A stretch of DNA of 64,000 nucleotides, taken from Octopus vulgaris. Lineage: Eukaryota. Position 1 is the stretch's first letter. Each line of letters begins with the position of its first letter. Under the pieces are notes generated by a model. It was not told the origin of the DNA, did no database searches, and was given only the letters and a program-made list of their open reading frames with translations. Shown here in pieces: positions 3,363 through 61,502 of this stretch. The stretch lies in NCBI GenBank assembly GCA_951406725.2, contig OX597830.1, positions 19,468,001 through 19,532,000 on the forward strand, written 5' to 3'. A program made the translations under genes and the position numbers.

Positions 3363-3462
3363 GTGAATTCTATGACCTCCCAGAGGGTTTCACAGGTTCT
3401 GAGACTTCAGGATCAGTTATTGCTTTGGCATTTTATGATGGATTATGGGCTTTTGAGGGATG
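3363..3462 (+). CDS. SLC7A9: SLC7A9-like copy A exon (100 nt; TM6) [34 protein letters not shown]
   Basis: tttag|GT acceptor and TG|gtgagt donor; LAT TM6 motif; mirrored in copy B. Confidence 0.93.
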
Positions 3463-4127
3463 GTGAGTAATTTTGTCTTAGTTTCATTCATTATTATGTT
3501 TATGTGTGTTTTTTGTGTTTATGTTTTGCGTTTGTTCTCTCCTTGTCATCGCTTGGCAACCAGTATTGTTTTGTTTACATCCTTGTAACTTAGCAATTTG
3601 GCAAACAAGAACAATAGAATAAGTACCAGACTAAAAAAACAAAAGAAAGTAAGTTCCCGGGGTCCTTTCGTTTGACTGTACCCTTCGGGGTGGCAGCCTC
3701 TCAGTATGGTTGCAGTCCAATCACTGAAACAAGTTAATAGGAAAAGATGAAGATGATGTGCCATCAGACAAACATCATCATCATCATCATCATTGTCGTC
3801 ACTACTATCATCATCATCATCATCATCTTCATCATAACTGCCATCATCAGTATGCTAACATTTCTTATTTCTTTACTACCCACAAGGGGCTAAATACAGA
3901 TGGAACAAACAAGGACAGACAAGCGGATTAAGTCGATTACATTGACCCCAGTGCGTAACTGGTACTTAATTTATCGACCCCGAAAGGATGAAAGGCAAAG
4001 TCTACTTCGGCAGAATTTGAACTCAGAATGTAACAGCAGACGAAATACCGCAAAGCATTTCGCCCGGCATGCTAATGTTTCTGCTAGCTTCCCACCTTAA
4101 TATTGATAATGATACTAATAATTCTCA

Positions 4128-4328
4128 TTGTTATTGTTGCTGTTGTTATTATTATTATTATTATTATTATTATTATTATTATTATTATTATTATTATTAT
4201 TATTATTATTATTATTATTATTATCATTACTATTATCGTTATTATTATTATTGTTATTATTATTATTATTATTATTATTATTATTATTATTATTATTATT
4301 ATTATTATTATTATTATTATTATTATTA
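4128..4328. repeat. (TAT)n microsatellite
   Basis: Directly visible; source of the poly-Y/I/L/N ORFs. Confidence 0.95.
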
Positions 4329-6181
4329 ATATGGCAGCAAGCTGCCAGAATCATTAGCAGACCCAGTGGAATGCGCTTAGCAGCATTTTGTTTGTCCTTC
4401 GGTTCTGAGTGCAAATTCCACTGCAGCTGACTTTACCTTTCATCCTTTCGGGGTCGTTAAATTAATTACCAGTTGTGTACTGGGGTCGATCTAATCGACT
4501 GGACCCCCCCCCCCCAATTTCAGGCCTTGTGCCTTAGTAGAAAGGATTATCATTGCTATCATTATTATTATCATTATGTAATGAGATGGCAGAATCATTG
4601 GCATGCTAGACAAAATGCTTTGCAGTATTTCGCCTGTCGTTCCATTCTGAGTTAAAATTCTGCCAAGGTCAACTTTGCTTTTCTCCTCTCGGAGTCAATA
4701 AATTAAATACCAGTGAAACACTGGAGTCAATGTAATTAATAGTCCCCTCGCCTAGTAGAAAAGATTATTATTATTGACCTAGTGGTTAGGGTGCTCTACT
4801 TATGATCATTTGTGCAGGTCATTCAGTAAAAGCTGAACACTCACAACTTATCTTCAATGGGAGAGTCCATCATCATTATTATCATTGCTATTGTTATTAT
4901 CATTATTATTATCATTATTGAGTGAGAGAGCAGTACATGCCATCAAATTGACACTGGGGTAAAATGTACAAAGCCTAGTATACCCATCATGACTACCCGT
5001 CTGATAAGGGTACACTAGGCACATGCATCACAACCATATGTGTGCAACATAGTGATCTCATATCAAGATAAATAATGCATGACCTTGCAGGTAGGGCCCA
5101 GTTAGACTTTTCTTTTGGTTGAGTAGACCATCCCATTCAAAAGGTCCCTGAATAACGATTGTTTAAAGATGTTGAACAAACCACCCATGTTTCCAAAGGT
5201 GAATTATCCAAAACTCTAAGAATTCCTCTCAACACATGGCTATGATGCTCCCCCACTATTTCTGCTCGTGATCAGAGATGCACATATCATCAGCCACTAA
5301 GGGACATGGTCAACTGGTTAAGGTCAAAAAGCTGACAAGCAAATCTGTGGTATTGAGCAGAATATTTGCTGTAGCCCATCTTTTATACAAAGACAAAACA
5401 ATGTACATGATAACACTTCCAATCAGTTAAGATCAGTAGCCATGAGAGCCAGAGCCTGGTACTGAATCAGAGCATGCATTATTATTATTATTATTATTAT
5501 TATTATTATTATTATTATTATTATTATTATTATTATTATTAGATTGGAGTTTGTTGCTCAGGTGGTCTACATCATTTCCATTTCTCTCTCCCTCTCTCTC
5601 TCTTTATCTTTTTGTGTTTTGCCTAGCCTTCCTACTCCTTCAAGACAAGAGGCTCTGAAGTGATTCTTACTATGCCACATGTTTCAACCAGGCATTTGGC
5701 CCTGTATTGTCAATCTTAAGCCCTTTTGTACACAGTTCTATTATGGAACTGTAGGGTTATGAGTGCTTGGAAGCCCATTTTAATACATACCTCCTAACCA
5801 CATGCAGCCTCTTATTAGGGCTGCTTTCACTATTAACCCATACTATGATACAAAAGTGATGACTAGCCACAGATTTGCCTCGTTTCTGATATCTTTTATT
5901 GTCACTCTTGTATTTCTTTGCTCCCATGTATTGGTGGTACAAATGTACAGCCAGATGTGTGTCCCAAACTTTCAGCCCATGTTTTGGATGATTCTTTAAT
6001 TTCAAAAGTATAATAGGATTTAACCCAAAAGAAAGCAAAGAGAAAAAATGTATACTTGAAAGGCACAGGAGCCTCTATAATTAAATAATTTATAAATTAA
6101 ATAATTTATGTCTATCTCAAAATTAATTATTAATAACTTCCACTTTTTCTATCTTTTCCTTTTTTCTTTTTTTCAAAACAG

Positions 6182-6226
6182 GAATAGCCTCAATTATGCC
6201 ATAGAGGAACTTAAAAATCCATACAG
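6182..6226 (+). CDS. SLC7A9: SLC7A9-like copy A exon (45 nt) NSLNYAIEELKNPYR
   Basis: Pyrimidine tract plus aacag| acceptor, AG|gtttgt donor; phases fit both neighbours; EELKNP motif. Confidence 0.92.
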
Positions 6227-6467
6227 GTTTGTACAGGCTGCAAATTTTCTACTTGAGATTTTCATTATATTTTCTTTATATGATATGTTAAGAATTTACC
6301 ATTTTCTCTCTTTTGTTAATTTTAATTTAAGAATTTTTCATAGGATACAGAAGCTCTTATTCTTTGTAGAATAAGAGTGTCTGAAAATAAACATGTACAT
6401 ACACACATCTGTGCATGTATGTATATATGTGTGTGTGTTCCGATATATATATATATATATATATATA

Positions 6468-58942: not shown

Positions 58943-58976
58943 TAATAATAATAATAATAATAATAATAATAATAAT

Positions 58977-59518
58977 ACCAGGCAGTGGCTCTCATGGCTT
59001 CTGATCTTAACTGATTGGAAGTGTTATCATGTACATTGTTTTGTCTTGGTATAAAAGATGGGCTACAGCAAATATTCTGCTCAATACCACAGATTTGCTT
59101 GTCAGTTGTTTGACCTTAACCAGTTGAGCATGTCCCTTAGTGGCTGACGATATGTGCATCTCTGATCACGAGCAGAAGTAGTGGGGGAGCATCATAGCCA
59201 TGTGTTGAGAGGGATTCTTTGGGGTTTGAATAATTCACCTCTGGAAACATGGGTGGTTCTTTCAACATCCTTAAACAACCCTTATTCAGGGACCTTTTGA
59301 GCGGGATGGGCTACTCAACCTGAAGAAAATTCTAACTCGGCCCCACCTGCAAGGTCATATGCTGTTTATCTTGATATGAGATCACCATGTCGCGCACATA
59401 TGGTTGTGATGCATGTGCCTGGTGTACCCTTATCAGACGGGTAGTCATGATGGGTATATTGGGCTTCGTATATTTTACCCCAGTGTCACTTTGATGACAT
59501 GCACTGCTCTCTCACTCA
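58977..59518. mobile_element. ~540-bp interspersed repeat in (TAA)n; inverted counterpart at 4918-5465
   Basis: Reverse-complement match at the equivalent intron position of copy A. Confidence 0.7.
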
Positions 59519-60023
59519 ATAATAATAATAACAATAATGATAATAATAATAATAATAATAATAATAATAATAATGATAATAATAATAATAATAATAATAA
59601 TAACGATAATAACAATAATAATAATAATAATAATAATAATAATAATAATAATAATAATGATAATAATTATGATGATGATGATGATGATGATAATAATAAT
59701 AATAATAATAATAATAATAATAATAATAATAATAATAATAATAATAATAATAATAATAACAATAATAATAAATAATAATAATAATAATAATAATAATAAT
59801 AATAATAATAATAATAATAATAATTATGATGATGATGATGATGATAATAATAATAATAATAATAATAATAATAATAATAATAATAATAATAATAATAATA
59901 ATAATAATAATAATAATAATAATAATAATAATAATAATAATAACAATAATAATAAATAATAATAATAATAATAATAATGATAATGATGATGATGATGATG
60001 ATGATGATAATAGTAATAATAAT
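59519..60023. repeat. Compound (TAA)n/(TGA)n microsatellite
   Basis: Directly visible. Confidence 0.95.
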
Positions 60024-61225
60024 AGTGCGGAATAATCTACCTAAAAAGTGGCAAGGTACAGGGACAGAATTACTGAACAGAGACTTTATTAAACAAATTG
60101 AAACGAAAGGATACAAATACCATTGTGTGCTAGACTTCAACGAGATAATGGATAAGGAAATGAAAGAGCAGCTTAGGATGGGGTATTTCCGAAGATTGTA
60201 GTTGGTGTTGCGCTCAGAACTGACTGGATGGAATAAAATCCAAGCAGTTAATACGTGGATGATAGCATCATTTCGGTATGGAGCGAGAATTATAAAATGG
60301 TAAAAGAAAGAAGTGAAGAAAATGGATACCAAAACCAGAAAAATGTTGATAGTACACGGAGCCTTCCACCCTATGAGTGACACCGATAGGCTGTACTTGT
60401 CCAGAAGAAAAGGTGGGAGAGGTTTGATCAGTTGCCAGGACTGTATCGAAGCAGAGGAAAGCAACGTAGGGTGGTATATAAAAAGTACCGTGGAACCACT
60501 GTTGAAACACATAAAAGATGGCATCATCAAAACTGAAAATTGTGTAACAAAGGAGAAATTTAAACAAGAAATGAACAAAAAAGAAAAAAGGAAAGCATGG
60601 AAGGAAAAAAATGTACGGTCAGTTTGCAAGAGATGTGAACGCCAAAACAGATACAGAGGACCGGTGGCTATGGATGAGGAGGAGTGACCTGAAGACAGAG
60701 AGAGAAGCACTCATATGCGCAGCTCAGGAACAAGCGTTAAGGACCAACTATATGAAGTGTAGAATAGACAACACTACCGATAGCGACGAATGCAGAATGT
60801 GTTGTGAGATGGGTGAAACAGTATGGCATATCGTTAACGAATGCCCGAAATTGGCACAACGCGAATACAAAAGATGCAAGAATGATCCACTGGGAACTCT
60901 GTGGAAATCACGACCTACAAAGAGCAAAGACGTGGTATGAGAAAACCCCGAGAGTAACCGAAAATGAGAATTGCAAAATCCTGTGGGATGTAATGATCCA
61001 GTGCGATCACCCGATCAGAGATAGGAAACCGGACATTATTGTGGTGAATAAAAAGGAAAGAACATGTATGATAATCGACATAGCATGCCCAGGTGACAAC
61101 AGGACCAATGTGAAAGAAGAAAAGATAAATATCTATGACGATTTGAAGAGGGAAAAACGAAGATTGTGGTCAATGAAGAGGGTAGACGTGATACCAGTAG
61201 TAATTGGTGCACTTAAAAGTATCAA
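60024..61225 (+). mobile_element. Older, frameshifted R4/Dong-like LINE fragment following a long (TAA/TGA)n tract
   Basis: HPMSDTDRLYLSRRKGGRGL, AAQEQALRTN, CRMC..ETVWHIVNEC and KPDII..IIDIACP split over several frames. Confidence 0.88.
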
Positions 61226-61402
61226 GGGGACGAACGCTTCTATAACTCTAGGATCTCTTGAAAGGGAACTTGGCATCAAATTTTTCGACCTATATAACCT
61301 GTTTGCCACTAATGTGGATACTTATGACTCGTGTCTTGACGGAAGAGTTACACAATCACAGGACTGAACAATTATGAATGAAACTTAGACAAAACTACTC
61401 AC

Positions 61403-61502
61403 CATCCATTATAGGCCCATAATCCATCATAAAATGCCAAAGCAATAGCTGATCCTGAAGTCTCGGAACCTGTGAAACCCTCTGGGAGGTCGTAGAATTC
61501 AC
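61403..61502 (-). CDS. SLC7A9: SLC7A9-like copy B exon (100 nt; TM6) [34 protein letters not shown]
   Basis: Reverse complement has ttttag|GT acceptor and TG|gtgagt donor; not in the ORF track. Confidence 0.93.

What the first reader, a model, noticed from the sequence alone, without database searches (positions are those of the whole stretch)
3440..61425. Paralogs differ at the TM6 substrate-selectivity residue: WAFEGW (A) versus WAYNGW (B)
Seen: A has TTT GAG and B has TAT AAT just before GW. Known (from memory): human b(0,+)AT has WAYDGW, where Asp233 in unwound TM6 is implicated in cationic substrate recognition, while LAT1/2, y+LAT, Asc-1 and xCT have G, S or A there. Inference: A keeps an acidic but longer side chain and B has lost the charge, so the pair may have split into transporters with different specificity. 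Cephalopod-relevant substrates such as D-aspartate, cystine or arginine derivatives are speculation only.
Basis: partly seen in the sequence, partly recalled or inferred. Interest (0 to 1): 0.78.

Follow-up and report, generated by a model that had tools for sequence, protein, structure and literature searches.

The report
Octopus transporter duplicates carry cystinuria-like substitutions
Two neighbouring octopus copies of an amino-acid transporter gene have each swapped a highly conserved acidic residue of the substrate pocket for residues reported in kidney-stone disease (cystinuria) in a child and a cat, so they likely carry a changed or narrower set of amino acids, while a sister copy keeps the original residue.

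Summary
Observation confirmed. The window holds the intact last eight exons of two SLC7A9/b(0,+)AT-like genes, tail to tail, in an Octopus genome (vulgaris complex). Glu (A) and Asn (B) align without gaps to human Asp233. Asp is ancestral (170 of 175 non-Octopus homologs), so both copies are derived. The two-gene story is too narrow: they belong to a cluster of at least five models (E, D, D, E, N), one with an ancestral pocket, and A's likely counterpart in O. sinensis has Asp. Both copies carry further pocket changes (A: Y232F, N237S, Y267N, S320I; B: N239S, Y240N, S320A). B has no compensating acid at 236. One paper reports D233N-equivalent homozygosity in a cystine-stone cat and D233E in a cystinuric child, so Glu may not preserve function either. 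B is no old pseudogene: it avoids conserved sites (2 of 45 changes, 8.6 expected). Best reading: pocket divergence after duplication, B likely losing cationic transport (0.5). Main rival: relaxed, weakened copies (0.27). Expression and transport are untested; Asn and Glu arose repeatedly at this site in distant family members.

The parts
3363..3462 (+). Copy A, window exon 1 (loop before TM6 and TM6a); F232 at 3452-3454, E233 at 3455-3457
6182..6226 (+). Copy A, exon 2 (TM6b); N237S against the cephalopod ancestral state
8946..9069 (+). Copy A, exon 3 (TM7); Y267N at 8995-8997, Tyr in 180 of 180 non-Octopus homologs with a residue
11613..11716 (+). Copy A, exon 4 (TM8); A317T, S320I
14706..14802 (+). 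Copy A, exon 5
19062..19211 (+). Copy A, exon 6 (TM9-TM10); pocket-2 residues F378, S379, W383, Y386 kept
21622..21790 (+). Copy A, exon 7 (TM11-TM12)
22630..22718 (+). Copy A, last coding exon with stop
61403..61502 (-). Copy B, window exon 1 (TM6a); Y232 at 61413-61411, N233 at 61410-61408
55526..55570 (-). Copy B, exon 2 (TM6b); N236 kept, N239S (Asn in 175 of 175 homologs) and Y240N; 5 amino-acid changing and 0 silent differences from A
51414..51537 (-). Copy B, exon 3 (TM7); Y267 kept
46249..46352 (-). Copy B, exon 4 (TM8); T313I, S320A, T323A
44260..44356 (-). Copy B, exon 5
41056..41205 (-). Copy B, exon 6 (TM9-TM10); 96.7% identical to A at DNA level
37939..38107 (-). Copy B, exon 7 (TM11-TM12)
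35757..35845 (-). Copy B, last coding exon with stop
1984..28404 (+). Left arm of the inverted duplication (alignable blocks; the 5' exons of A lie before the window)
33653..62116 (-). Right arm of the inverted duplication (the 5' exons of B lie beyond the window)
28405..33652 (.). Spacer of about 5.2 kb between the arms

Best explanation
A and B are intact, tail-to-tail duplicates of the octopus SLC7A9/b(0,+)AT-like gene whose substrate pockets have changed at several positions, and B likely no longer carries cationic amino acids while A is predicted to have a retuned pocket. Steps: (1) shown: Asp233 is ancestral and a copy with a fully ancestral pocket sits in the same cluster of models; (2) shown: B has Asn233 with no acid at 236 and no new acidic residue among its derived changes; (3) inferred from mammalian mutants: the acid at 233 binds the substrate's positive charge, so B would be an exchanger of neutral amino acids, with cystine transport uncertain and probably reduced; (4) inferred: A keeps a charge but moves it (Glu plus Y232F, N237S, Y267N, S320I and, in its 5' model, S46A, A76V, S124A, S/A131V), which would change side-chain preference or lower activity; (5) inferred: the Asp copy keeps the old cystine/dibasic job and so frees the others to diverge. 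Both would still need an SLC3 heavy chain.
For: Register to D233. Asp in 170 of 175 non-Octopus homologs with a residue, Asn in 0, including Asp in Argonauta and decapods. O. vulgaris models CAI9735028-32 read E, D, D, E, N; CAI9735029 has 0 of 22 pocket sites changed. D233G/I/S abolish ornithine uptake; D233S keeps tyrosine and cystine uptake (PMC9110406). Cationic-carrying light chains all have an acid at 233 or its 236 equivalent. B is still constrained: 2 of 45 derived changes hit the 87 sites conserved at 95% or more, 8.6 expected, p=0.003, and both are in TM6. A is enriched for pocket changes: 6 of 42, p=0.013, against 2 of 151 in five control lineages. A/B amino-acid divergence is higher in exons 1-4 than 5-7 (28/276 against 15/317 sites, p=0.016). 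Asn233 is also in O. sinensis (XP_036366097). Sites 76, 233, 317 and 320 took two or three different residues in different copies.
Against: No transport data and no evidence of expression. B's pocket share (3 of 53, p=0.51) is what neutral change would give. No segment has dN/dS clearly above 1: overall 0.45, and exon 2 (5 against 0) is too short. The helix-face test for TM3, TM7 and TM8 was negative. The 22 pocket sites were picked from papers after I had seen the alignment. Both substitutions are reported cystinuria alleles, and D233A removed arginine and cystine transport alike in liposomes (PMC7159911), which fits plain damage as well. A's Glu is labile between sister species. The substrates of invertebrate Asp-bearing orthologs are not established either (sobremesa). 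The 5' halves come from database models, some visibly chimeric or exon-skipping.
Confidence: 0.5

Rival explanations
1. Relaxed, weakened copies in a birth-and-death cluster: the Asp copy does the work, and A and B have fixed damaging pocket changes and are hypomorphic or on the way out, without a new function.
For: D233N-equivalent homozygous in one cystine-stone cat and absent from 150 controls; D233E in a compound-heterozygous cystinuric child (PMC4942060). A does not avoid conserved sites (4 of 28, 5.4 expected, p=0.35). Amino-acid divergence in exons 1-4 (0.10) is close to non-coding divergence (587 of 5391 aligned bases, 0.109). B has a long branch (0.18 against 0.043 for O. bimaculoides). 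Models of the cluster are mosaics.
Against: All 16 exons and 14 introns are intact despite about 11-17% neutral divergence, where several stops, splice losses or frameshifts would be expected after long non-function (rough estimate). B avoids conserved sites (p=0.003). B's 5' and 3' parts are open in O. sinensis too (2 differences in 217 and 4 in 168 residues). Asn and Glu recur in distant family members.
Confidence: 0.27
2. Same substrates, different place or dose: Glu and Asn are tolerated in the octopus protein and the copies differ mainly in where or when they are expressed.
For: D/E exchange between near-identical A-type models; W230, W235, N236, F378, S379, W383 and Y386 are kept in both; position 233 is variable across the wider family (Asp in only 50 of 145 representatives).
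Against: Three neutral residues at 233 each abolished ornithine uptake; Asp is kept in 170 of 175 closer homologs; several other pocket residues changed with it.
Confidence: 0.13
3. B's Asn is restored to Asp in the mRNA by A-to-I editing (AAT read as GAT), which is common in coleoid cephalopods (recalled), so the protein would carry Asp in edited tissues.
For: The codon is one A-to-G step from Asp.
Against: The surrounding 271 nt fold no better than shuffles (z=+1.32); no complementary partner longer than 11 nt within B's part of the window; N239S and Y240N cannot be edited back.
Confidence: 0.04
4. Assembly artefact: two haplotypes of one gene placed as an inverted pair.
For: Tandem clusters are hard to assemble, and the public models are fragmentary.
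Against: 15% protein and about 11% non-coding divergence, different intron insertions; A-type and B-type models also lie side by side on a 42,326-bp O. sinensis scaffold.
Confidence: 0.03

Closest known systems
Mammalian b(0,+)AT / SLC7A9 (PDB 6LI9, 6YUP, 7NF6)
   Same: Best solved-structure match for an A-type paralog (499 bits against 366 for LAT1; top Foldseek hit, TM 0.87). W230, G234, W235, N236, F378, S379, W383, Y386 kept. Two intron positions checked against the cat gene's variant names match.
   Different: Asp233 replaced by Glu (A) or Asn (B); further changes in TM1, TM3, TM6b, TM7, TM8; several copies in a cluster.
Cystinuria alleles at the same residue: cat p.Asp236Asn (human D233N) and human p.Asp233Glu (PMC4942060)
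   Same: Exactly the two substitutions seen in B and A.
   Different: Rare disease alleles of a single-copy gene, one case each, no transport assay, urine amino acids not measured in that cat; in octopus they sit in extra copies beside an Asp copy and with other pocket changes.
y+LAT1/2, LAT1, LAT2 (human paralogs without an acid at 233)
   Same: No acid at 233, as in B.
   Different: y+LATs supply an acid at the 236 equivalent and carry cationic substrates; B has Asn236 like LAT1 and LAT2, but keeps Trp230 and Tyr386 of b(0,+)AT.
Drosophila sobremesa (CG9413) and single-copy cephalopod orthologs (Argonauta, Sepia)
   Same: Invertebrate members of the same group; the Argonauta and decapod proteins and the insect model named sobremesa have Asp; the fly protein forms a disulfide-linked dimer with CD98hc.
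   Different: No pocket change of this kind; substrates not determined in the passages read.

Membership tests
SLC7 heteromeric-transporter light chains | APC/LeuT fold with 12 helices and unwound TM1 and TM6 | tested here: met
   Pfam AA_permease_2; model of the A-type paralog P0122, pLDDT 89.7, matches 6LI9 at TM 0.87. A and B themselves were not folded.
SLC7 heteromeric-transporter light chains | Cysteine in the loop between TM3 and TM4 for the bond to the SLC3 chain | tested here: met
   Present in the 5' models of A and B, invariant in 60 of 60 aligned homologs, opposite human C144. It lies outside the window.
SLC7 heteromeric-transporter light chains | Forms a dimer with an SLC3 heavy chain | not tested
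   No heavy chain was looked for.
SLC7A9 / b(0,+)AT orthologous group | Closer to b(0,+)AT than to any other human light chain | tested here: met
   499 against 366 bits or less for native human paralogs. The tree held no LAT, y+LAT, xCT or Asc-1 rows, so it does not test this.
SLC7A9 / b(0,+)AT orthologous group | Shared intron positions | tested here: met
   Introns after exons 6 and 7 map to c.1224 and c.1399 in primate numbering, matching cat c.1233+1 and c.1409-30 with its 3-residue offset. 2 of 7 checked; other paralogs were not compared, so this is not diagnostic alone.
System b(0,+) (functional class) | Asp at 233 | tested here: not met
   Glu in A, Asn in B.
System b(0,+) (functional class) | Pocket-2 residues W230, W235, S379, W383, Y386 | tested here: met
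   All kept in both copies.
System b(0,+) (functional class) | Sodium-independent exchange of cystine and dibasic amino acids | not testable with these tools
   Needs uptake assays.
System y+L | Acid at the 236 position with a neutral residue at 233 | tested here: not met
   Both copies have Asn236.
Pseudogene | Stops, frameshifts, lost splice sites, no avoidance of conserved sites | tested here: not met
   None in 16 exons; B avoids conserved sites, p=0.003. A's avoidance is not significant. 5' exons and promoter lie outside the window.

The most novel reading that the evidence does not exclude
The vulgaris-complex octopuses turned one b(0,+)AT gene into a small array of transporters with graded selectivity: an Asp copy for cystine and dibasic amino acids, an Asn copy that is a neutral or aromatic exchanger (for example tyrosine/DOPA supply for ink or biogenic amines), and Glu copies retuned for other cationic substrates of arginine-ornithine metabolism. 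Substitutions that cause cystinuria in mammals would then be fixed innovations made workable by neighbouring pocket changes. The named substrates are speculation.
Probability: 0.18. Interest if true: 0.8.

Novelty: new variant of a known kind. Interest (0 to 1): 0.5.

Why it matters
The cluster is a natural D/E/N series at the residue that structural papers name as the charge filter of b(0,+)AT, in proteins about 85-95% alike. D233E and D233N have been linked to cystinuria, but my search found no transport assay of either. Assaying the octopus copies and swaps would show whether these changes kill the transporter or redirect it, which second-site changes rescue them, and whether a cephalopod-specific amino-acid route arose by duplication. 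If the copies are only decaying, the finding is an ordinary duplicated gene.

Tried and rejected
Expression: no RNA holder listed; no reads were laid, so expression is open. No whole genome is held, so copy number rests on database models. Helical-face clustering of changes: not significant in TM3, TM7, TM8; one of the nine tests run (TM5 in A, p=0.002) includes changes shared with the Asp copy and was not pursued. Positive selection by dN/dS: not shown. Editing substrate around the Asn codon: none. A full-length B-type protein in the databases: none among the hits; the O. sinensis Asn model lacks TM6b-TM7 and continues with A-type exons, so N239S and Y240N could not be checked in a second species, and the O. 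bimaculoides models lack the TM6 exons. The O. vulgaris models P0231 and P0233 were rejected as independent evidence, since they match the window letter for letter. Atlas searches gave only family names. Literature: no paper on octopus SLC7A9-like genes; two searches returned nothing; the Asp233Asn hit in PMC5024448 is another gene, GALNS; PMC8478756 had no exon data. Earlier scan notes: none relevant. The careful tree did not finish; the quick tree was used.
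Full report
Observation. Both motifs are present as described. A self-comparison shows an inverted duplication with arms at about 1984-28404 and 33653-62116 and a 5.2-kb spacer. Each arm carries eight coding exons of equal sizes with GT-AG introns and an open frame to a stop; 44 of 291 residues differ, dS 0.20, dN 0.088 (searches had border errors that fixed). No 5' exons and no third copy lie in the window. The TM6a exon aligns without gaps to human b(0,+)AT 209-234, which puts Glu (A) and Asn (B) at Asp233.

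What the genes are. The closest proteins are Octopus models named b(0,+)-type amino acid transporter 1-like. An A-type paralog scores 499 bits against human b(0,+)AT and 366 or less against the other native human light chains, and its predicted model has 6LI9 as top fold match. Intron positions map to c.704, 749, 873, 977, 1074, 1224 and 1399 in primate numbering; the last two match intron positions in the cat gene's variant names; the other five agree only with my recall. O. vulgaris models CAI9735031 and CAI9735032 match A and B at 48 of 48 and 47 of 47 shared residues, and the out-of-frame tail of the second is encoded by B's exons. The window is therefore most likely this locus in O. vulgaris or a very close relative, and those two models are not independent evidence. 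I used them as the 5' halves of A and B.

Polarity and cluster. Of 230 proteins fetched at that point, 192 of 250 residues or more were aligned; among the 182 non-Octopus ones, 175 had a residue at 233: Asp 170, Ser 4, Glu 1, Asn 0. Argonauta and the decapod proteins have Asp. Five consecutive O. vulgaris models read E, D, D, E, N; they differ in their 5' parts, so I count at least five copies, with the caveat that the models are fragmentary. CAI9735029 has an ancestral pocket (0 of 22 sites changed). O. sinensis has Glu models, one Asn model and one Asp model. That Asp model differs from A at 5 of 291 residues and lies beside a B-type 3' model on a 42,326-bp scaffold, about the span from A's exon 1 to B's exon 5 here, so it is probably A's positional counterpart (inference). 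Glu is thus labile; Asn is shared by two sister species. A quick tree places A, B and the Asp copy in one clade after the O. bimaculoides branch (support 87, weak), with a long branch to B.

More than one residue changed. In the window, A also has Y232F, N237S, Y267N (Tyr in 180 of 180), A317T and S320I; B has N239S (Asn in 175 of 175), Y240N, T313I, S320A and T323A. Their 5' models share a rebuilt TM3 (S124A, I128S, C129S, A131V), and A's has T42I, S46A and A76V. Positions 124 and 76 correspond to LAT2 Asn134 and Thr86, named as selectivity or pocket-2 residues (register through LAT1). With 22 pocket sites taken from these papers, A has 6 of 42 derived changes in the pocket (p=0.013), B 3 of 53 (p=0.51), five control lineages 2 of 151. 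The site list was drawn up after seeing the alignment. B avoids the 87 most conserved sites (2 of 45 changes, 8.6 expected, p=0.003), and both exceptions are in TM6; A does not (4 of 28, p=0.35). Helix-face clustering was not significant. Non-coding divergence is 0.109 over 17 of 18 blocks tried, biased low by local alignment; amino-acid divergence is 0.10 in exons 1-4 and 0.046 in exons 5-7. No segment proves positive selection.

What the residue does. PMC9110406 (passages and section 14 read): D233G, D233I and D233S lose ornithine uptake; D233S keeps tyrosine; cystine uptake is kept in D233S and largely in D233G; y+L and CAT proteins use an acid at 236 instead; double mutants are dead. PMC7159911 (passages and section 10): Asp233 contacts bound arginine; D233A has almost no arginine or cystine transport. 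PMC7653941 (first of two parts): only light chains with an acid in this region carry dibasic substrates. PMC4942060 (passages and section 6): one cat homozygous for p.Asp236Asn (human D233N) had recurrent pure cystine stones, urine amino acids not measured, allele absent from 150 controls; a child with p.Asp233Glu plus a splice variant had cystinuria (seen only as cited there). PMC9618567 and PMC6167638 were seen as passages. No supplements were read; the alignment in PMC9110406's supplement bears on the Asc-1 and xCT residues. A search for assays of D233N or D233E found none.

How unusual. Among 145 of 150 distant representatives that cover TM6, position 233 is Asp 50, Gly 37, Ala 20, Ser 19, Asn 8, Glu 8 (one being A's own 5' model), Thr 2, Val 1. 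On a fast tree of 118 well-covered rows, 6 Asn need 6 changes and 6 Glu need 5. These proteins are unnamed; one Asn example is LAT/xCT-like and one Glu example b(0,+)AT-like. So both states recur in the family, which lowers novelty and makes them plausible working states.

Mechanism and rivals. Most likely (0.5): duplication left one Asp copy with the old job, and the others diverged in the pocket; B, with no acid at 233 or 236, would be a neutral amino-acid exchanger, and A a retuned or weaker one. The main rival (0.27) is relaxed selection on redundant copies, favoured by the disease alleles, near-neutral divergence of the TM6-TM8 exons and missing expression data, and opposed by intact frames and B's avoidance of conserved sites. 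Same substrates with divided expression (0.13), editing of B's AAT back to Asp (0.04; no structure found) and assembly artefact (0.03) follow. Expression could not be tested: no RNA holder was listed and no reads were laid.

Verdict. Real, correctly placed, and more interesting for the match to two cystinuria alleles and the D/E/N cluster than for the A-versus-B contrast alone. A new variant of a known kind; searches found no paper on it. Interest 0.5, held down by the lack of expression and transport data.

Noticed in passing
window 56574-58769 (+): A 732-codon open frame with a reverse-transcriptase domain (RVT_1) in B's first window intron, antisense to B and absent from A's intron; its length without stops suggests a recent LINE insertion. 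Further LINE-like pieces at about 60000-61364 had no Pfam hit.
   Followed up: partly
window 6769-7305 (+): Tc1/mariner-type transposase remnant (HTH_Tnp_Tc3_2) in A's intron 2. Other element-like frames at 196-1269, 8026-8949 and 14133-14429 gave no Pfam hit.
   Followed up: partly
window 25442-25879 against 34983-35430; 1984-2775 against 61552-62116: Divergence between the arms is patchy, 2.5% near the spacer against 19-21% at the far ends; exon 6 also has few silent differences. This may be gene conversion.
   Followed up: partly
window 22718-35757: The genes converge; a read-through transcript crossing the 5.2-kb spacer would be able to fold back on itself as a very long hairpin. Untested.
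   Followed up: no
window about 39430-40400: A minisatellite with an apparent 18-bp unit is expanded to about 1 kb in B's intron 6 and short in A (about 20400-20490).
   Followed up: no
P0233 and P0002, TM1: S46A in the otherwise invariant TM1 GSG motif occurs in the O. vulgaris 5' model of A and in the O. sinensis Asn model but not in the O. vulgaris model of B: conversion between copies or parallel change.
   Followed up: partly
distant representatives: Phe232 goes with Glu233 in 4 of 7 representatives against 21 of 137 others (p=0.018, relatedness not corrected). In Octopus, Phe232 also occurs with Asp233, so it may have come first.
   Followed up: partly
P0006, P0030, P0010, P0234, P0121: All cephalopod orthologs share departures at otherwise conserved sites (G79S, A80S, A290G, and T242 where covered), older than the duplication.
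   Followed up: no
P0225, P0077, P0096, P0098, P0101: A Lottia paralog has Glu and four Daphnia proteins have Ser at 233, each on a long branch where included in the tree: parallel cases in other invertebrates.
   Followed up: partly
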